Notes: a model not told the origin generated them from the letters alone. DNA of 64,000 nt from an uncultured Gammaproteobacteria bacterium (GCA_964415965.1 CAYQCK010000003.1:67426-131425), one strand, 5' to 3'. Shown: positions 20,243 through 25,105, counted from the stretch's first letter. Translations and numbers: made by a program.

Positions 20243-20929
20243 ATGTCGAAGAATTTCATGCAGTCGACGTCTGAGCTGTGCTTCGCCGATCGCGACTTCC
20301 TGCCGTCGTACTGCCAGGCGCCCGTGCGCCGGCCGAGCAACCGCTCGAACCCGGACGCGGACGAGGTCCAGCGCTTCTTCGGCGCCGAGGACGACTTCGG
20401 CTACCTCTTGTCCGCCGATTCCCGGCAGGACATCGAGGACGAGCTCGACGAGGACGACGACACCATCGACGATGACACCGGCCTCGAGGAGCTCCTCGTG
20501 GGCGCTTGGGCCGAGCTGGATGCCGACGAACGCGAAGAGGACCGGCCGCTCCATCCGGTGCGGAAGGTCACCCTCAGGAAGCCCCGGCAGCCGACGCGCG
20601 AGGAGATCGAGTTCGAGATGCGCTGGCTGAGGCCGCGCAACGTCGCGCTCCTCACCATGGCCGAATGGGACGCGCTGGAGCAGCGGGCCACCGAGCTCTG
20701 CAAGGAGCACAACCGGCGCTACGGATACGTGGAGACGATCACCAAGTTCGTCCCCGACCGCCCGCCGCTGGAGCCCATCGACCCCGAGGAGGCAGCTCTC
20801 CGCCGCGCATCGCGCCGCGAAGCCAGCGAGGCCATCAGCCGCAGCTACGGCAAGGACGATCGCGCCCGCGGCGGCAACAGCAAGCCGCGCCGCATCCACG
20901 ACGACCGCACGACGCTCCGCCGCGGCTAG
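20243..20929 (+). CDS. Hypothetical acidic protein (ORFan)
   Basis: Start MSKNFMQ with a perfect AGGAGG 6 nt upstream. D/E-rich central region. No known domain. The track ORF starts at 20108. Confidence 0.55.
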   Translation: MSKNFMQSTSELCFADRDFLPSYCQAPVRRPSNRSNPDADEVQRFFGAEDDFGYLLSADSRQDIEDELDEDDDTIDDDTGLEELLVGAWAELDADEREEDRPLHPVRKVTLRKPRQPTREEIEFEMRWLRPRNVALLTMAEWDALEQRATELCKEHNRRYGYVETITKFVPDRPPLEPIDPEEAALRRASRREASEAISRSYGKDDRARGGNSKPRRIHDDRTTLRRG

Positions 20930-20937
20930 AAGCTCAT

Positions 20938-21035
20938 TCCCACCTGATATCCCACCTGATATCCCACCTGAACGCTGAACTCCCAACTCGAGTTCAGCCA
21001 TCCCCTCGAGACCAAGACCTTGTCGTGGTCTCGAG
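20938..21035. repeat. 12-nt tandem repeat (tcccacctgata x~3) followed by two stem-loops
   Basis: Tandem repeat at 20938-20972. Hairpins CTGAACTC/GAGTTCAG (~20975-20997) and CTCGAGACCA/TGGTCTCGAG (~21005-21035). Confidence 0.5.
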
Positions 21036-21059
21036 CAGGACTGAAGAAAGGAGAGTGAA

Positions 21060-21326
21060 TTGAAAACCAATAGCACCATTAACGAAATGGCACGACTGGC
21101 CGCCCAAATGGATACGGCCGCCATTGCACAACAGATCACCGCCGAGGAACAGCTGTACGAGCAACTCGAGCACGAAACGCAACTCGGATTCTTTCATTCC
21201 CGCGCAGACGAGAAAACGACCGTCGAGCTGCGCGACATGGTCGTCGAGCGGCTGTTCGCACTTCGCGAGGAGCTCAAGCGTCGAAATTCCGCGAAGCCGC
21301 CGGCCAGACCACACAACTGCTCGTGA
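21060..21326 (+). CDS. Small hypothetical protein (88 aa, TTG start)
   Basis: AAAGGAGAG lies 5 nt upstream of the TTG. Helical, charged sequence. Confidence 0.4.
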   Translation: MKTNSTINEMARLAAQMDTAAIAQQITAEEQLYEQLEHETQLGFFHSRADEKTTVELRDMVVERLFALREELKRRNSAKPPARPHNCS

Positions 21327-21652
21327 TATCAACCCGCAACGAAAGGAGAGGTGCCCTGAGACTCATCGTGCATCGCTGAAATGCGTACGGGTCCCGCAAC
21401 CCTGATGCCGAAGGCCGCCGCACAAGACGGCGTGACCTGAATCGGCTCACATGGACCTTGCACCTTCTCCGTCCACAACGGAGAACTCGCAGCCGAACTG
21501 GGCTGCGCTCGCTGGAGAGAAGAATGAGGTGAAAGCCCTCAACGATGTGTCGATTGCGGCTCCAATCCGGACCCGCAGCCACACGTCGAGTCTCGACTCC
21601 AGCGCCCATCCGAGGGCACGAAAAATTCGCGCCTTCAGATGGAGGGAGAAAA

Positions 21653-21817
21653 ATGAGCCAAACGACCAAGCAGGAAGAACCCCGCGACCAGTTCACTCTC
21701 AACGTCATCGCGTGGATCCAGGACCTCGTCCGCGGAACCACGGCGCTCGACACCCGGCGACAGGAGGAGGAGTTCCAGCAGCTCCTCAACCAGCCGCTCG
21801 AGACCTTCGAGCACTGA
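21653..21817 (+). CDS. Small hypothetical protein (54 aa)
   Basis: MSQTTKQEEPRDQFTLNVIAWIQDLVRG... with GGAGGGAG upstream. Followed by a perfect 10-bp hairpin and a terminator. Confidence 0.35.
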   Translation: MSQTTKQEEPRDQFTLNVIAWIQDLVRGTTALDTRRQEEEFQQLLNQPLETFEH

Positions 21818-22636: not shown

Positions 22637-23032
22637 TTCCCATCCTCGACTCCGGCCAGCTCGGTTCCGACCGACTGGCCTTCCGCACCAGTTCCCGTGC
22701 CTGAGACGCACTGGACCTGATGCGGGCATGGATATCCGCCGCAAGTCGCCGGTGACAGCCTTCGCCGTCGGCTTGGGGCGGACCTCGCGGTCCGTCGCCG
22801 ACGCACTTCAAAAGACGTTCCTGAACCATCCCGTCCGACGGGACTAAAGCCTTGGCTGAACCAGGGCCCGGACAGGCAACACTTATTTCAACCAGCGTCA
22901 GCCTCCCCAAACAGCCAAGCCGCAACTTCACAACCGAACAACTCTCCGCATCTCGGGCCATCAGACAGCCCGCCAAGATCGGAGCTAACAGGCGGGAAAC
23001 CGCCTTAGGAACAGTTTCCAAGGAGGAAAAGC

Positions 23033-24313
23033 ATGCACCAGAACCTGATCGACAGTCTCGCCGTACGGATGAACGTGGAAGCGCACGGCCAGATCGAGTC
23101 CTACTCCACCCCGTTCAACAACATCGTCGTGACCGGACCGGACGGCGAAGACACGCACTACATGCCGCCCGCGAATCTCCGGCTGATGATGTTCAACATC
23201 CCGGCCGTGAACCGCGACGGCGAACCCGTGATCATGAGCAAGGACGAGATCGTCCTCTGCCGCCTCGGGCTCCCCCGCGAAATCCTGAGCAAGTCCCGCC
23301 GGGCGTCCATGGATCCGAAGCTGCGTCGGGACCTCGAATTCTACGAGAGCCTCGACGTCCTGGAGTACCAGGCCCGGATCGAGATCGCCTACGGCAAGTG
23401 CGACATGGTCGCGCCGCAGGAGGCCCTCGAACGCCACGAGCTCAGCTACTTGGGACCGGACCTGGAGAAGATGGTGCTCGACGGCGTCATGGACACCATG
23501 TTCGTCGACGACCGCAACTACCACGGCGGCGGCGGACGCTCCGGCCGGCCCCAGAAGACGAGCATCGACCTGTACTGGCTGCGGCGCATCATCCGCAAGC
23601 AGAAGCCGGGCGACAAGCTCACCTTCGGGCGGTACTTCGTGAAGCTCACCGGCGATATCCGTCAGACCATCGCCGGCGACTCGCGGTTCATCACCCACGT
23701 CATCTTCGGCCGGCTGCCAGACAAGAACGCGCGGGTCCGGCCGCTCGACCGCATCTCCGGTCGTCTCGGCCAGGACGGTCGCGGCTTCATCGCCGTGCTG
23801 CAGATGCAGGACATCCGGCACGGCATCGAGACGTACACGAGCCAGATCGTCCCGGAGCCAGAAGGTCGAGGCACGATGCACGAAATCTGGCTCATCGACC
23901 ACCCGACACCGATCTGCATGGACGATCCGGGCCTGGACAAGTTCTTGGCCCATTTCGCGCCCCAGCAGACCGTCCCGGAGCCGGAAGTCCTCGCGGAGGA
24001 AGCCGGAGGCGAAGCCGAGGCCGAACAGGCCGAAGCCGAGCCCCAGGCGGAAGCCGAGACCGAACCCCCCGTTCCCGAGGCGACGACGTCCGAATCCGAA
24101 GGAGCGGCAACCTCGACCGAGGAGCCGCAGCCTGATCCGGAATCCGGAGCGACGGAACCCGCGGAGGAAGCCGAGGCCGAACAGGCCGAAGCCGAGCCCC
24201 AGGCGGAACCCGTGTCCGCCCCGGAAACGGTCCAGGAAGCTCCTGTTGCTGCCGCTTCCCAGACGGCCGACGAGGACCTGCCTCCGGAAGTCCGCGAACT
24301 CCTCTCCAACTGA
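23033..24313 (+). CDS. Hypothetical protein with a C-terminal acidic tandem repeat (AEEAEAEQAEAEPQAE x2)
   Basis: Perfect RBS (AAGGAGGAAAAGC ATG). 426 aa. The DNA-level direct repeat is at ~24010-24060 and 24168-24215. No known domain. Confidence 0.7.
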   Translation: MHQNLIDSLAVRMNVEAHGQIESYSTPFNNIVVTGPDGEDTHYMPPANLRLMMFNIPAVNRDGEPVIMSKDEIVLCRLGLPREILSKSRRASMDPKLRRDLEFYESLDVLEYQARIEIAYGKCDMVAPQEALERHELSYLGPDLEKMVLDGVMDTMFVDDRNYHGGGGRSGRPQKTSIDLYWLRRIIRKQKPGDKLTFGRYFVKLTGDIRQTIAGDSRFITHVIFGRLPDKNARVRPLDRISGRLGQDGRGFIAVLQMQDIRHGIETYTSQIVPEPEGRGTMHEIWLIDHPTPICMDDPGLDKFLAHFAPQQTVPEPEVLAEEAGGEAEAEQAEAEPQAEAETEPPVPEATTSESEGAATSTEEPQPDPESGATEPAEEAEAEQAEAEPQAEPVSAPETVQEAPVAAASQTADEDLPPEVRELLSN

Positions 24314-24325
24314 CCCCGCCTGCAC

Positions 24326-24352
24326 CCGCGAAGCCGATCTTCGGCTTCGCGG
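24326..24352 (+). terminator. 12-bp perfect hairpin (CCGCGAAGCCGA/TCGGCTTCGCGG) after the 23033 gene
   Basis: Read from the sequence. No U-tract follows. Confidence 0.4.
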
Positions 24353-24508
24353 ATTCCCTCGATGACTGCATCCTTGCCAAAACCGGCGAATAGGGCTATG
24401 GAGTTATTGAGGGAATCTTATTTCGGGAGTCTCCGCCCCCTGCGCCGCGACGGCCTTGCGCCGCTGTGCAGGGGGCGGAAACGCCTTTGACAAGCAAGGG
24501 GATGCATC

Positions 24509-25105
24509 ATGCGTAACGGGGCTGCCAAAAACGGCAAGTTCGGCAATGGGATCAAGCGTCTCAAGAACCGGGGCGAGGCGGTCATCGATGCCTCCGACCG
24601 GTTCCGGGCCAGGCGCGCCGAAGCGGACAGCGAACGCGCTGCCGCCGTCCTGCTCCCGGCTTGGATCCCCATCCAAGCCGGCAACCGGGACGCGGCGCGA
24701 CCCCAGGCGTCAGTCGGACCGGGCCGGGACCCGGGACCCGCGGCAAATAACGTGCAGGCGCTGCGGCCGCGCGTCGAAGTCGACCCGAAGCAGGTCTTCA
24801 TCCTAGCTAAGGACGAAGAAGTGCTCGACGAAATCGGCGTCCGTTGCGTACCGTTCACGGTATTGCCGGCGCCCCTCGACCCCGCAGACGACCTGCCCTA
24901 CCTGACGCCCTACCTCCTTCGAGGCTGGGATTGCGTCTTGTTCCAAGATCCTGACGACCCCGACTTGCCCCGCGCCCTGCAGAGGCATGAAGACCCTTAT
25001 CGGACATTCGATGCGGCCCTCGAAGGCCTGCCGGCGGAAGAACGGGCCAAGTACCGGCGAGGTGATTACAAGCTGTACCACTTCGTCCCCGACCCGCTTG
25101 GCTGA
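24509..25105 (+). CDS. Hypothetical protein
   Basis: 198 aa, AAGGGGA upstream. The upstream region carries an 11-bp inverted repeat (CCGCCCCCTGC...GCAGGGGGCGG, ~24433-24478) and a TTGACA hexamer at ~24486. Confidence 0.5.
   Translation: MRNGAAKNGKFGNGIKRLKNRGEAVIDASDRFRARRAEADSERAAAVLLPAWIPIQAGNRDAARPQASVGPGRDPGPAANNVQALRPRVEVDPKQVFILAKDEEVLDEIGVRCVPFTVLPAPLDPADDLPYLTPYLLRGWDCVLFQDPDDPDLPRALQRHEDPYRTFDAALEGLPAEERAKYRRGDYKLYHFVPDPLG

What the first reader, a model, noticed from the sequence alone, without database searches (positions are those of the whole stretch)
20243..25105. Cluster of ORFans, each with its own promoter and terminator, including an acidic-repeat protein
This ~5 kb stretch carries six plus-strand ORFs: 228 aa acidic, 88 aa, 54 aa, a 92-aa two-TM protein, 426 aa with the duplicated C-terminal AEEAEAEQAEAEPQAE block, and 198 aa. 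None matches a family I recognise.
- Most have textbook RBS sites.
- They are separated by long spacers of 130-540 nt. Those spacers are full of strong hairpins and terminators: a 10-bp GGCTGAAGCG stem, a 12-bp CCGCGAAGCCGA stem, ACGGG/CCCGT+U, and an 11-bp IR at 24433-24478. One spacer holds the consensus promoter at 22009, another a 12-nt tandem repeat.
- This one-gene-one-transcript architecture contrasts with the tightly overlapped operons elsewhere in the window.
Basis: partly seen in the sequence, partly recalled or inferred. Interest (0 to 1): 0.55.

Follow-up and report, generated by a model that had tools for sequence, protein, structure and literature searches.

The report
RNA-rich orphan-gene locus in Patescibacteria
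The long "spacers" between these small, family-less genes are the best-conserved part of the region: they hold three promoter-driven structured RNAs that match no known RNA family, one ending in a tRNA look-alike and one carrying a loop exactly complementary to it.

Summary
**Observation.** The six plus-strand ORFs, their ribosome-binding sites, spacer lengths, hairpins, the 22009 promoter, the 12-nt repeat and the duplicated acidic block are all present. None of the six matches Pfam, NCBIfam, PHROGs, PADLOC or PDB sequences.

**Not a mobile island.** The block sits between rpoB and a RodZ-like gene plus ftsK in all 10 related Patescibacteria loci long enough to show both flanks.
- Five ORFs are conserved and under purifying selection, but they evolve fast.
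- The 88-aa ORF is confined to the window's lineage and is doubtful.

**Not one gene per transcript.** Only three conserved sigma-70-type promoters exist, and each drives a structured RNA.
- RNA1 (19628-20196) has two paralogous four-way-junction modules plus a tRNA-like element.
- RNA2 (22044-22357) is the leader of the 92-aa membrane-protein gene.
- RNA3 (25248-25421) is a terminated small RNA. Its exposed loop AUCUCUCUCCUCC is the exact complement of the invariant GGAGGAGAGAGAU in RNA1.

All three structures show compensatory base changes and none matches Rfam. They persist in relatives where most of the ORFs differ.

**Best reading (inferred).** This is a vertically inherited RNA-centred regulatory or ribonucleoprotein locus. 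Its function is unknown.

The parts
19594..19622 (+). Promoter P1: TTGACA, 17 nt, TATATT, with TG extension
   Evidence: It scores 11 of 12 consensus positions. It is conserved in every locus that holds this stretch.
19628..20196 (+). RNA1, a structured RNA of about 570 nt: 5' leader, module 1 (19689-19871), module 2 (19904-20095) and a tRNA-like element
   Evidence: - RNAalifold on 7 loci predicts 152 pairs, 35 of them with compensatory changes.
- 97% of cells are paired, against 38-48% when the partners are slid; 35 double changes against 4-7 slid; 0 of 500 shuffles reach the observed values.
- The two modules are paralogues: reciprocal nhmmer E-values run from 9e-4 to 1e-19, mostly 5e-5 or better.
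- There is no Rfam match.
19705..19717 (+). Invariant GA-rich motif GGAGGAGAGAGAU in module 1; the second copy, GGAGGAGAGA, lies at 19920-19929 in module 2
   Evidence: The exact 10-mer occurs only three times in the 64-kb window: here, at 19920, and as its complement at 25327.
20109..20196 (+). tRNA-like element: a 7-bp acceptor stem (GGCAUUG/CGGUGCC), a T-arm (GCGGG-UUCAACU-CCCGC), then A and CCA
   Evidence: - The acceptor stem differs between lineages but always pairs: GGCAUCG/CGAUGCC, GGCACGA/UCGUGCC, GGCACGU/ACGUGCC, GCCACCG/CGGUGGC and CGCAGUG/CACUGCG (helix 15, 93, 120).
- ARAGORN finds nothing here. It calls a 93-95-nt tRNA-Gly(ACC) in the L001 and L007 variant only.
- The best Rfam hit is mascRNA-like, below threshold at E = 1.2.
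20243..20929 (+). g228: acidic 228-aa protein with a conserved N-terminal motif FMQST.ELCFADRDFLPSYC and a basic C-terminus
   Evidence: - Only 8 homologues were found among 5.8 billion protein clusters.
- It is 50-55% identical to its L001 and L003 counterparts.
- Constraint is weak: dN/dS 0.62-0.83.
- It is absent from L009 and L011, where the tRNA-like element is followed directly by the g54 leader.
20938..21035 (+). 12-nt tandem repeat (20938-20971) followed by two hairpins (GCTGAACTCCCAACTCGAGTTCAGC, and 21005-21018 with 21022-21035)
   Evidence: Found by TRF and the inverted-repeat search (I18). The hairpins are conserved in L003, L007 and L009.
21060..21326 (+). g88: an 88-aa ORF with a TTG start, probably lineage-specific, coding status uncertain
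   Evidence: - It has no counterpart in any other locus.
- Only near-identical cluster members exist.
- Its GC3 is 0.69, against 0.76-0.93 for its neighbours.
- L007 carries an unrelated 59-aa ORF at the same place.
21653..21817 (+). g54: conserved 54-aa acidic protein, preceded by a conserved leader of about 60 nt in which CCAUCCGA pairs with UCAGAUGG next to the Shine-Dalgarno sequence
   Evidence: - Orthologues are 37-73% identical.
- dN/dS is 0.29-0.44.
- The leader is conserved in 5 loci.
- The SD-flanking pairing (7 of 8 positions) was read by eye and was not folded or tested for covariation.
21828..21926 (+). Hairpin at 21828-21851, then an intrinsic terminator at 21899-21917 plus a U-run: the end of transcription unit 1
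   Evidence: Detected. Conserved, with compensatory changes, in 5 loci.
22009..22037 (+). Promoter P2: TTGACA, 17 nt, TAGATT, with TG extension
   Evidence: Detected. Conserved in all 7 aligned loci and in L017 and L020.
22044..22357 (+). RNA2: a structured 5' leader of about 310 nt for g92, made of a four-way-junction domain plus a long hairpin. The pyrimidine tract AUCUCUCUCUUCC (22134-22146) is predicted to be mostly unpaired; only its last C falls in a helix.
   Evidence: - 82 pairs, 97.4% of cells paired, against 31-47% when slid.
- RNAalifold counts 13 pairs with compensatory changes. The pair count gives 14, against 0-3 slid.
- It is 69-90% identical in nucleotides across loci.
22358..22636 (+). 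g92: small membrane protein with two hydrophobic segments and a basic amphipathic tail
   Evidence: - Hydropathy profile.
- Orthologues are present in all loci, including L017 and L020.
- dN/dS is 0.20-0.52.
22637..23032 (+). Structured spacer between g92 and g426, with several covarying hairpins and a conserved CCUCCCC tract
   Evidence: Aligned. RNAalifold predicts 63 pairs, 18 with compensatory changes. No promoter-like site is found here.
23033..24313 (+). g426: a folded domain of about 310 aa, an acidic disordered tail of about 100 aa with the duplicated block, and a conserved C-terminal peptide LPPEV.ELL.N
   Evidence: - Only 14 family representatives were found among 1.84 billion proteins.
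- AF2 gives mean pLDDT 77.5; most of residues 1-310 score 82-96, apart from a low-confidence loop near 161-170.
- Foldseek finds nothing in the PDB or BFVD.
- dN/dS is 0.19-0.46.
24326..24430 (+). Hairpin H1 (24326-24352), long hairpin H2 (24352-24371 with 24398-24417) and a following U-rich run: a terminator or attenuator between g426 and g198
   Evidence: Conserved in all 7 loci, with a compensatory change in H1. The following inverted repeat at 24426-24485 lies in a stretch found only in the window and L009 (an unrelated insertion there) and absent from the other five loci.
24509..25105 (+). g198: a basic N-terminal helix, a variable linker and a conserved C-terminal domain of about 110 aa
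   Evidence: - Orthologues are 32-58% identical.
- dN/dS is 0.18-0.40.
- The AF2 model is unusable, with pLDDT 42.
- tblastn does not detect it in L017.
25213..25241 (+). Promoter P3: TTGACA, 17 nt, TACGCT. It falls below the scan threshold but is conserved.
   Evidence: Found at the same position in the 7 other loci that cover this stretch, including L017 and L020.
25248..25421 (+). RNA3: a rod-shaped small RNA of about 175 nt with an asymmetric internal loop AAUCUCUCUCCUCC (25323-25336) and an intrinsic terminator (25402-25414 plus a U-run)
   Evidence: - 51 pairs, 96.9% of cells paired, against 37-46% when slid.
- RNAalifold counts 5 pairs with compensatory changes. The pair count gives 6, against 0-2 slid.
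- The core UCUCUCCUCC is invariant in 9 loci. One or two upstream bases vary in L006, L016 and L017.
- The loop is the exact reverse complement of the RNA1 motif.
- The predicted duplex energies are -27.2 and -23.9 kcal/mol.

Best explanation
**What it is**
This is a vertically inherited, lineage-specific chromosomal locus of a small Patescibacteria clade. The one named relative is a Candidatus Uhrbacteria MAG. The constant core is RNA, not protein.

**Shown: about three transcription units, each started by a conserved sigma-70-type promoter**
- Unit 1: P1 (19594), then RNA1 (two paralogous four-way-junction modules plus a tRNA-like element), then g228 (dispensable), g88 (doubtful) and g54, ending at the terminator at 21899.
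- Unit 2: P2 (22009), then the RNA2 leader, g92 (membrane protein), a structured spacer, g426, a hairpin/attenuator and g198.
- Unit 3: P3 (25213), then the small RNA3, ending at the terminator at 25402.

**Inferred mechanism**
1. The tRNA-like element is a processing signal. RNase P would cut at its 5' side, and RNase Z or the CCA-adding enzyme would act at its 3' side. This would detach the stable RNA1 body from the downstream mRNA.
2. RNA3 uses its exposed pyrimidine loop, which resembles an anti-Shine-Dalgarno sequence, to pair with the two GGAGGAGAGA sites of RNA1. It would pair more weakly with the GA-rich ribosome-binding sites of the locus's own genes.
3. RNA1 would therefore act as a decoy for RNA3, or as a switch triggered by it, and so set translation of the small proteins.
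4. The other conserved leaders fold next to the ribosome-binding sites and probably act in cis.

**Proteins**
Their role is unknown. My best guess is an envelope- or division-associated or RNA-binding set. The basis is the membrane protein g92, a weak whirly/SsgB-like fold in g426 with an acidic tail and a docking peptide, and the RodZ-like and FtsK neighbours.
For: **Synteny and vertical descent**
- The order is the same between rpoB and the RodZ-like gene plus ftsK in L001, L003, L006, L007, L009, L016, L017 and L020, and in the gene table of the P0032 locus.
- GC3 is native.
- No integrase gene was called between rpoB and the RodZ-like gene in any locus, and the tRNA-like 3' end is not duplicated in the window.
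- No viral similarity appears.

**The ORFs are real but evolve fast**
- dN/dS is 0.18-0.52 for g54, g92, g426 and g198.
- Amino-acid identity is 32-58% over most pairs, while rpoB is 87-97% and ftsK 76-91% identical.

**The RNAs are under stronger constraint than the ORFs**
- RNA1 and RNA2 are 69-90% identical in nucleotides where synonymous sites of adjacent ORFs differ at 33-63%.
- Compensatory changes are far above the slid controls: 35 against 4-7, 14 against 0-3, and 6 against 0-2.
- All three RNAs and their promoters persist in L017 and L020. In L017 only g92 and a g426 homologue are recognisable. In L020 g92, g426 and g198 are recognisable, plus a short stretch of g228.

**Modules and tRNA-like element**
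- The modules are paralogous and can be reshuffled.
  - L020 carries a third copy.
  - L021 has a copy upstream of its g426 homologue.
  - In L001 and L010 a small ORF is inserted between module 1 and module 2.
- The acceptor stem of the tRNA-like element covaries in six versions.

**Complementarity between RNA3 and RNA1**
- The match is 13 nt and exact.
- Both partners are invariant in their 10-nt core.
- The exact 10-mer occurs nowhere else in the 64-kb window.
- The predicted duplex energies are -27.2 and -23.9 kcal/mol, against -18.9 and -16.8 for the P1 helix segments they would displace.

**Transcription units**
- Conservation of those sites is shown.
Against: - There are no expression data of any kind. 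The promoters, terminators and processing sites are all predictions.
- The RNA3-RNA1 pairing cannot be tested by covariation, because both motifs are invariant. Both are low-complexity GA or CU tracts.
- The GGAGG part of the RNA1 motif is already paired inside helix P1 of each module.
- All loci come from closely related genomes (rpoB at least 87% identical). Some RNA conservation may therefore reflect shallow divergence, and the shuffle control is known to be inflated by relatedness. The slid controls argue against that.
- The complementarity of RNA2 to RNA1 weakens in the more distant loci, from 13 nt to about 9 nt.
- The scan covers sigma-70-type promoters only, so extra promoters in the other spacers are not excluded.
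Confidence: 0.55

Rival explanations
1. The region is a string of independent orphan genes, each with its own promoter and terminator. The spacers are only transcription signals.
For: - Several terminator-like hairpins are present, and there is one textbook promoter.
- The scan does not cover non-sigma-70 promoters, so unseen promoters remain possible.
Against: - No promoter-like site precedes g54, g426 or g198. The only site before g228 is a weak 9-of-12 match overlapping its ribosome-binding site.
- The spacers are 200-570 nt of covarying multi-helix structure, far more than a terminator needs.
- The spacers are better conserved than the ORFs.
- Two of the three conserved promoters drive stretches of about 570 and 175 nt with no conserved ORF.
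Confidence: 0.1
2. The modules of RNA1 and the other leaders are cis-acting sensors, either tandem riboswitches or binding sites for the encoded proteins. Each would control the ORF downstream, as ribosomal-protein operon leaders or tandem glycine riboswitches do. On this view the complementarity with RNA3 is incidental.
For: - Every conserved ORF is preceded by its own conserved structure.
- Modules occur in variable number and always upstream of ORFs.
  - Module 1 precedes an inserted ORF in L001 and L010.
  - L020 has a third module.
  - L021 has a module before its g426 homologue.
- Each module is closed by a P1 helix, as an aptamer is.
- g426 has a weak resemblance to whirly and PUR folds that bind purine-rich single strands.
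Against: - No conserved terminator/antiterminator or SD-sequestering platform is attached to the modules. They lie at least 100 nt from the next start codon, with the tRNA-like element in between.
- No match appears to any riboswitch family in Rfam.
- This view does not explain the exact, invariant 13-nt complementarity with RNA3.
Confidence: 0.2
3. RNA1 is a ribosome-directed RNA: an unusual tmRNA-like or hibernation-type molecule. It would combine Shine-Dalgarno-like tracts with a tRNA-like, CCA-ended domain. RNA3 would mimic the anti-Shine-Dalgarno end of 16S rRNA.
For: - The GGAGG-containing motifs are invariant, and a minihelix of acceptor stem and T-arm ends in CCA in 6 of the 10 RNA1 copies read.
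- The promoter is strong.
- The RNA3 loop contains CCUCC.
Against: - ARAGORN and the Rfam tmRNA models find nothing.
- The acceptor stem is formed locally, not by the two ends of the RNA.
- The third acceptor pair is C3:G70 in most variants, never G3:U70.
- No conserved tag reading frame exists.
- The CCA is not conserved in L003, L007, L009 or L020.
- The middle of the tRNA-like element is not conserved.
Confidence: 0.08
4. The region is a remnant of a mobile element or prophage, or a defence island, that inserted next to a tRNA-like attachment site.
For: - A tRNA-like 3' end lies at the left border.
- The ORFs are small and of unknown function, with a variable complement between genomes.
Against: - The chromosomal position is the same in all relatives.
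- No gene with an integrase or transposase domain was called at any locus, and the tRNA-like end has no second copy in the window.
- Neither PADLOC nor PHROGs gives a significant hit.
- No hit appears in viral contigs, phage genomes or viral structures.
- GC and GC3 match the flanking core genes.
Confidence: 0.04

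Closest known systems
MALAT1/mascRNA and MEN-beta/menRNA (eukaryotic long RNAs ending in a tRNA-like element cut by RNase P and RNase Z); also bacterial tRNA-mRNA co-transcripts such as the tufB operon (from my own knowledge)
   Same: A long structured RNA is followed directly by a tRNA-like fold of acceptor stem and T-arm. The only Rfam family that comes near is mascRNA-menRNA, over 20136-20192. 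A downstream message follows the element.
   Different: The match is below threshold (21 bits against a 42.5-bit gathering score, E = 1.2), so this is an analogy and not homology. The host is bacterial. Cleavage has not been shown. The element is 88-100 nt long with a variable middle region.
tmRNA (ssrA)
   Same: It has a tRNA-like domain with a T-arm very like that of tmRNA (GCGGGUUCAACUCCCGC), a 3' ACCA, a strong promoter and a size of several hundred nucleotides.
   Different: - The acceptor stem is made by two nearby strands, not by the 5' and 3' ends of the RNA.
- There is no G3:U70 pair, no tag reading frame and no pseudoknot ring.
- ARAGORN and Rfam do not detect it.
Base-pairing small RNAs with decoy or sponge RNAs (for example ChiX with the chb spacer, or GcvB with SroC), and C- or U-rich seed sRNAs that mask Shine-Dalgarno sequences (for example RsaE/RoxS) (from my own knowledge)
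   Same: A terminated small RNA carries an exposed pyrimidine-rich loop. A second abundant RNA carries two perfect target sites. Weaker matches fall on nearby ribosome-binding sites.
   Different: - There is no sequence relation to those RNAs.
- The target sites sit inside large four-way-junction domains.
- Pairing is inferred only.
- No chaperone is known for this clade.
Large 'ornate' bacterial non-coding RNAs of unknown function (OLE, GOLLD, ROOL, raiA)
   Same: The RNA is long (about 570 nt), multi-domain, covarying and lineage-restricted. It has conserved protein-gene neighbours. GOLLD and ROOL are often found next to tRNAs (from my own knowledge).
   Different: - No match appears to any of these Rfam models, even at E up to 10.
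- The architecture is distinct: tandem paralogous domains plus a tRNA-like element.
- The location is chromosomal and not phage-associated.
Whirly, PUR and SsgB-type folds, relevant to g426
   Different: - The scores are marginal.
- Only about 100 of the roughly 310 folded residues are aligned, at 3-10% sequence identity.
- Foldseek finds no significant match.
- g426 adds an acidic tail and a C-terminal peptide that those families lack.

Membership tests
tmRNA | The acceptor stem is formed by the 5' and 3' ends of the whole RNA | tested here: not met
   The 5' strand (20109-20115) lies 74 nt upstream of the 3' strand (20186-20192) and about 480 nt from the RNA's 5' end. The covariation links these two local strands.
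tmRNA | A G3:U70 alanine identity pair and a tag-peptide reading frame | tested here: not met
   - The third acceptor pair is C3:G70 in the variants that start GGC or GCC, and never G3:U70.
- No conserved reading frame exists between or within the modules; the linker is variable or absent.
- ARAGORN finds no tmRNA.
tmRNA, or any other Rfam family | Score at or above the family's gathering threshold | tested here: not met
   - cmscan of the window and of L001 and L003 finds only one ordinary tRNA-Gly, at 63086-63157.
- With permissive filters on 18300-25500 the best hits have E of about 0.5-6 and all fall far below threshold.
tRNA | A cloverleaf with a conserved anticodon arm and a length of 70-90 nt | tested here: not met
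   - The acceptor stem and T-arm are conserved.
- The middle region exists in three unrelated versions.
- ARAGORN calls only the L001 and L007 version, as an atypical 93-95-nt tRNA-Gly(ACC) with A at position 33. It calls nothing in the window or in L003, L004, L006, L009, L011, L016, L017 or L020.
Genomic island or prophage at a tRNA site | An integrase or recombinase, a duplicated attachment site, foreign composition and a variable location | tested here: not met
   - No integrase domain appears among the called genes.
- The tRNA-like 3' end is unique in the window.
- GC3 is native.
- The location is fixed in all relatives.
- No viral matches were found.
Strict ORFans (no homologue anywhere) | No detectable homologue outside the genome | tested here: not met
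   - g228 has 8 homologues and the g426 family has 14 representatives.
- g54, g92 and g198 have orthologues in the syntenic loci.
- Only g88 behaves as an ORFan.
Known anti-phage defence systems | A match to a PADLOC model | tested here: not met
   No hit for any of the seven proteins tested at E up to 1.
Whirly, PUR or SsgA-like proteins (g426) | A significant fold or sequence match to the family | tested here: inconclusive
- The best Foldseek E-value is 0.15.
- Pfam and a PDB profile search find nothing.
Riboswitch | An aptamer coupled to an expression platform, with a ligand | not testable with these tools
   P1-closed junction domains are present. No conserved platform was recognised. Ligand binding needs experiments.
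Base-pairing sRNA with a decoy RNA | Demonstrated intermolecular pairing and a regulatory effect | not testable with these tools
   Only the sequence evidence is available: a 13-nt exact, invariant complementarity and favourable predicted duplex energy.

The most novel reading that the evidence does not exclude
RNA1, RNA2 and RNA3 are the parts of a previously undescribed bacterial RNA machine or circuit. A long RNA is built from duplicated four-way-junction domains that display Shine-Dalgarno-like tracts, and it ends in a processed, possibly CCA-tailed tRNA mimic. It works with an anti-Shine-Dalgarno-like small RNA, and with fast-evolving partner proteins including a whirly/PUR-like RNA binder. 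Together they would control translation or ribosome availability in ultra-small CPR bacteria.
Probability: 0.2. Interest if true: 0.85.

Novelty: new variant of a known kind. Interest (0 to 1): 0.7.

Why it matters
**Why a specialist would care**
- CPR/Patescibacteria have tiny genomes of about 1.3 Mb. Here roughly 2 kb of one 6-kb locus is spent on conserved structured RNA that matches none of Rfam's 4227 families.
- Selection holds these RNAs more tightly than the proteins encoded between them.
- If the RNAs are expressed, they add at least three new RNA families:
  - a large two-domain RNA with a tRNA-like end, an arrangement I know of only from eukaryotic MALAT1-type RNAs, viral tRNA-like structures and tmRNA;
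  - a structured leader;
  - a small RNA with an anti-Shine-Dalgarno-like loop.
- The built-in pairing between RNA1 and RNA3 is a directly testable hypothesis.

**Practical lessons**
- The "197-aa" and "168-aa" genes called over RNA1 modules in L017 and L021 are probably spurious.
- "Hypothetical-protein clusters with long spacers" in such genomes deserve an RNA-level look.

Tried and rejected
**Readings considered and rejected**
- *tmRNA.* The 3' end GGGUUCAACUCCCGCCGGUGCCACCA first looked like ssrA. I rejected this after ARAGORN and Rfam found nothing and covariation showed a local acceptor stem.
- *Attachment-site fragment of an integrated element.* The tRNA-like 3' end occurs only once in the window and the locus position is fixed.
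- *RNase P, SRP or 6S RNA for RNA1, RNA2 or RNA3.* None of their Rfam models matches, even at E up to 10. I also saw none of the conserved RNase P or SRP motifs when reading the sequence.

**Searches that led nowhere**
- Protein families: Pfam, NCBIfam, PHROGs, PADLOC and PDB profile searches all came back empty.
- A search of GTDB genomes with the g228 alignment found no relative.
- The RNA motif recovered only one GTDB genome, a Candidatus Uhrbacteria MAG.
- Viral contigs, phage genomes and viral structures gave nothing.
- Two literature searches found no description of these RNAs.

**Technical failures**
- The g198 structure model was too poor to use, with pLDDT 42.
- The AFDB Foldseek library was unavailable.
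- Whole-RNA duplex folding of RNA3 against RNA1 was uninformative, with z-scores from -1.7 to +0.8, because long sequences pair non-specifically. One attempt timed out. I replaced it with a motif-level calculation.

Full report

The window is a GC-rich (about 62%) bacterial chromosome segment. On the minus strand, rpoC and rpoB end at 18346. Also on the minus strand, a RodZ-like gene (HTH_25 plus Glucodextran_B domains) and ftsK begin at 25446.

Between them lie the six plus-strand ORFs exactly as described. Each has a GGAGG-type ribosome-binding site. The spacers measure 130, 326, 540, 396 and 195 nt.

The individual features were all found:
- The hairpins are at 21828-21851 and 24326-24352.
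- The terminator is at 21899-21917.
- The inverted repeat is at 24426-24485.
- The promoter is at 22009-22037 (10 of 12 consensus positions, with a TG extension).
- The 12-nt tandem repeat is at 20938-20971.
- The duplicated 30-nt acidic block in the 426-aa ORF is at 24011-24040 and 24167-24196.

Terminator-like sites are enriched here: 19 against 7.8 ± 3.0 expected. None of the six proteins matches Pfam, NCBIfam, PHROGs or PADLOC. The three profile searches I ran against PDB sequences (the g228, g426 and g198 families) also found nothing.

**2. Are the ORFs genes, and are they orphans?**

Homologues exist but are very few. The 228-aa protein has 8 among 5.8 billion protein clusters. The 426-aa protein has 14 representatives among 1.84 billion proteins.

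Fetching the DNA around these homologues showed the same arrangement every time: rpoC-rpoB, then the block, then the RodZ-like gene and ftsK.
- This holds for two contigs of about 1.3 Mb, L001 and L003.
- It also holds for L006 and L007, L009 and L016 and the more distant L017 and L020.
- The gene table of a further locus shows the same order.
- One source names a relative "Patescibacteria group bacterium". The only GTDB species genome that holds the RNA motif is a Candidatus Uhrbacteria MAG.

g228, g54, g92, g426 and g198 have orthologues in the same order, at 32-58% amino-acid identity over most pairs (up to 73% for g54). In the same loci rpoB is 87-97% identical and ftsK 76-91%.

Purifying selection is clear for four of them. 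dN/dS is 0.18-0.20 in the close pair L006/L016 and 0.25-0.52 for window pairs. It is weak for g228, at 0.62-0.83.

g228 is missing altogether from L009 and L011. g88 has no counterpart anywhere, has the lowest GC3 (0.69), and is replaced by an unrelated ORF in L007. I treat it as doubtful.

GC3 of the other ORFs (0.76-0.93) matches the flanking core genes. I conclude that these are fast-evolving, lineage-specific but vertically inherited genes. They are not an island and not strict ORFans.

**3. What the spacers really are**

Aligning the non-coding stretches across loci gave the main result. They are conserved better than the ORFs, and they fold.

*(a) RNA1 (19628-20196).*
It precedes about 570 nt with no conserved ORF.
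- On 7 loci RNAalifold predicts 152 pairs, 35 with compensatory changes.
- 97% of cells are paired, against 38-48% when the partners are slid. Compensatory pairs number 35 against 4-7 slid. None of 500 shuffles reaches the observed values.
- RNA1 consists of two four-way-junction modules, 19689-19871 and 19904-20095. Each is closed by a long P1 helix whose 5' strand holds the invariant GGAGGAGAGA.
- The modules are paralogues. A profile of one finds the other across most of its length in most loci, with E-values from 9e-4 to 1e-19.
- The copy number of the modules varies between loci.
  - L020 has a third copy.
  - L021 has one in front of its g426 homologue.
  - L001 and L010 have a small ORF inserted exactly between the two modules.

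*(b) The tRNA-like element (20109-20196).*
- RNA1 ends in a 7-bp acceptor stem, a T-arm, an unpaired A and CCA.
- The acceptor stem exists in six different but always complementary versions across loci.
- The middle part is not conserved, and ARAGORN sees a tRNA only in one variant.
- It is therefore neither a tRNA nor a tmRNA (section 5).

*(c) RNA2 (22044-22357).*
- The 22009 promoter is conserved in all loci. It drives a leader of about 310 nt for g92.
- The leader forms 82 pairs. RNAalifold counts 13 with compensatory changes, and the pair count gives 14 against 0-3 slid.

*(d) The spacers after g92 and after g426.*
- The g92-g426 spacer has 63 predicted pairs, 18 with compensatory changes.
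- The g426-g198 spacer has two hairpins and a U-run conserved in all 7 loci.
- Neither spacer has a promoter-like site.
L009 carries an unrelated insertion there, and the other five loci lack it.

*(e) RNA3 (25248-25421).*
- After g198 a third conserved promoter lies at 25213-25241 (TTGACA, 17 nt, TACGCT). It drives a rod-like RNA of about 175 nt that ends in the bidirectional terminator at 25402-25414.
- RNA3 forms 51 pairs, 96.9% of cells paired. RNAalifold counts 5 compensatory pairs, and the pair count gives 6 against 0-2 slid.

Where synonymous sites of the neighbouring ORFs differ at 33-63%, RNA1 and RNA2 remain 69-90% identical in nucleotides.

The distant loci show that the RNAs are the constant core and the ORFs a partly exchangeable complement.
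- In L017 (rpoB 87% identical) only g92 and a shortened g426 homologue are recognisable.
- In L020 (rpoB 89% identical) g92, g426, g198 and a short stretch of g228 are recognisable.
- Both keep all three promoters and all three RNAs.

**4. A built-in complementarity**

The asymmetric internal loop of RNA3 reads AAUCUCUCUCCUCC (25323-25336). Its core UCUCUCCUCC is invariant in all 9 loci that cover it.

The 13 bases AUCUCUCUCCUCC are the exact reverse complement of GGAGGAGAGAGAU in module 1 (19705-19717). Ten bases complement the copy in module 2 (19920-19929).

The exact 10-mer occurs only at these three places in 64 kb. One-mismatch versions fall on the g228 ribosome-binding site and, in antisense, on the largely unpaired junction of RNA2.

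Predicted duplex energies are as follows:
- RNA3 loop with module 1: -27.2 kcal/mol.
- RNA3 loop with module 2: -23.9 kcal/mol.
- The P1 helix segments that would have to open: -18.9 and -16.8 kcal/mol.
- The ribosome-binding regions of g88, g228 and g54: -13 to -16 kcal/mol.

Because both partners are invariant, covariation cannot test this pairing. It is an inference from sequence.

**5. Comparison with known things**

*Rfam.* Nothing beyond one ordinary tRNA-Gly (63086-63157) reaches threshold in the window or in L001 and L003. With permissive settings the best hit on the tRNA-like element is mascRNA/menRNA at E = 1.2. That is an analogy and not membership.

*tmRNA.* The defining features fail. 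The acceptor stem is local, there is no G3:U70 pair, there is no tag frame, and ARAGORN finds nothing.

*Mobile element.* This reading fails on every count:
- The position is fixed in all relatives.
- No integrase gene is called at any locus.
- The tRNA-like end is not duplicated.
- The base composition is native.
- No viral matches were found.

*The g426 domain.* It models confidently: mean pLDDT 77.5, and most of residues 1-310 score 82-96.
- It has no Foldseek neighbour in the PDB or BFVD.
- This is a hint of single-strand nucleic-acid or FtsZ-recruiter-like function, and no more than that.

*Tail of g426.* The acidic disordered tail and the conserved C-terminal peptide LPPEV.ELL.N suggest a docking motif.

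**6. How it most likely works**

*Shown.* There are three conserved promoters, two clear intrinsic terminators, covarying RNA structures, a covarying tRNA-like minihelix, invariant complementary motifs, and conserved but fast-evolving small proteins.

*Inferred.*
- The tRNA-like element is cut by the tRNA-processing enzymes. This separates a stable RNA1 from the g228/g54 message.
- RNA3 pairs with the two RNA1 sites, and more weakly with GA-rich ribosome-binding sites. RNA1 would then act as a decoy for RNA3 or as a switch triggered by it.
- The remaining leaders act in cis near the ribosome-binding sites. An example is the g54 leader, where CCAUCCGA can pair with UCAGAUGG next to the Shine-Dalgarno sequence. 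I read this pairing from the sequence and its conservation.
- The proteins may be the effectors or the RNA partners.

I put 0.55 on this overall description. The RNA genes themselves I rate at about 0.9. The specific RNA3-RNA1 regulatory mechanism I rate at about 0.35.

The main rival is that the modules and leaders are cis-acting sensors or protein-binding sites (0.2).

**7. Limits**

- No expression data are available.
- All loci come from one shallow clade.
- The promoter scan covers sigma-70-type sites only.
- The alignments come from 6-8 sequences.
- Structures of g198, g54 and g228 are unknown.
- The AFDB library was not available.

**8. Verdict**

The finding is real but was mis-framed. 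It is not a row of self-contained orphan genes. It is a conserved, RNA-centred locus holding at least three undescribed structured RNAs and four to five lineage-specific small proteins.

The families are new. The inferred logic (structured leaders, a base-pairing small RNA with a decoy, a tRNA-like processing signal) belongs to known kinds. I therefore rate it "new variant of a known kind". A 0.2 chance remains that it is something categorically new.

Noticed in passing
window 18347-18700 (minus strand): rpoB has its own conserved promoter (18683..18655) and a structured 5' UTR of about 320 nt, conserved in 6 loci (67 pairs, 12 with compensatory changes). The UTR contains a terminator-like hairpin followed by UUUU, a possible attenuator. 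No Rfam family matches it.
   Followed up: partly
window 18937-19347 (minus strand): A 136-aa very basic protein (pI 10.2) with its own terminator (18925..18902) matches no family. It is present in L001, L006, L011, L016 and L020 but absent from L003 and L007.
   Followed up: partly
window 19538-19581: An AT-rich stretch with an 18-nt inverted repeat (TTTGGCTCAAATAA / TTATTTTAGCCAAA) lies immediately upstream of promoter P1. It is conserved in the closer loci (L003, L007, L009-L011) and is a candidate operator or UP element.
   Followed up: no
L001 8966-9222; L010 about 570-940: A small ORF with a ribosome-binding site is inserted exactly between RNA1 module 1 and module 2 in two relatives. 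It looks like a membrane protein in L001 and a signal-peptide or lipoprotein-like protein in L010.
   Followed up: partly
L020 7616-7765; L021 490-650; L017 1570-2163: Extra copies of the RNA1 module occur elsewhere in the locus in distant relatives. The ORFs called over modules (197 aa in L017, 168 aa in L021) are probably spurious gene calls.
   Followed up: partly
window 21828-21851, 24326-24352, 25184-25197, 25264-25273: A GCGAAGCC or CUGAAGCG motif recurs in the hairpins after g54, g426 and g198 and in the closing helix of RNA3. It may be a shared protein-binding or RNase site.
   Followed up: no
L001 9507-9601; L007 2311-2403: In these loci ARAGORN calls the tRNA-like element an atypical 93-95-nt tRNA-Gly with anticodon ACC. 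The window's version has a quite different middle region and is not called.
   Followed up: yes
window 46000-48000: GC content drops to about 0.50, against about 0.62 elsewhere in the window. I did not examine this stretch.
   Followed up: no
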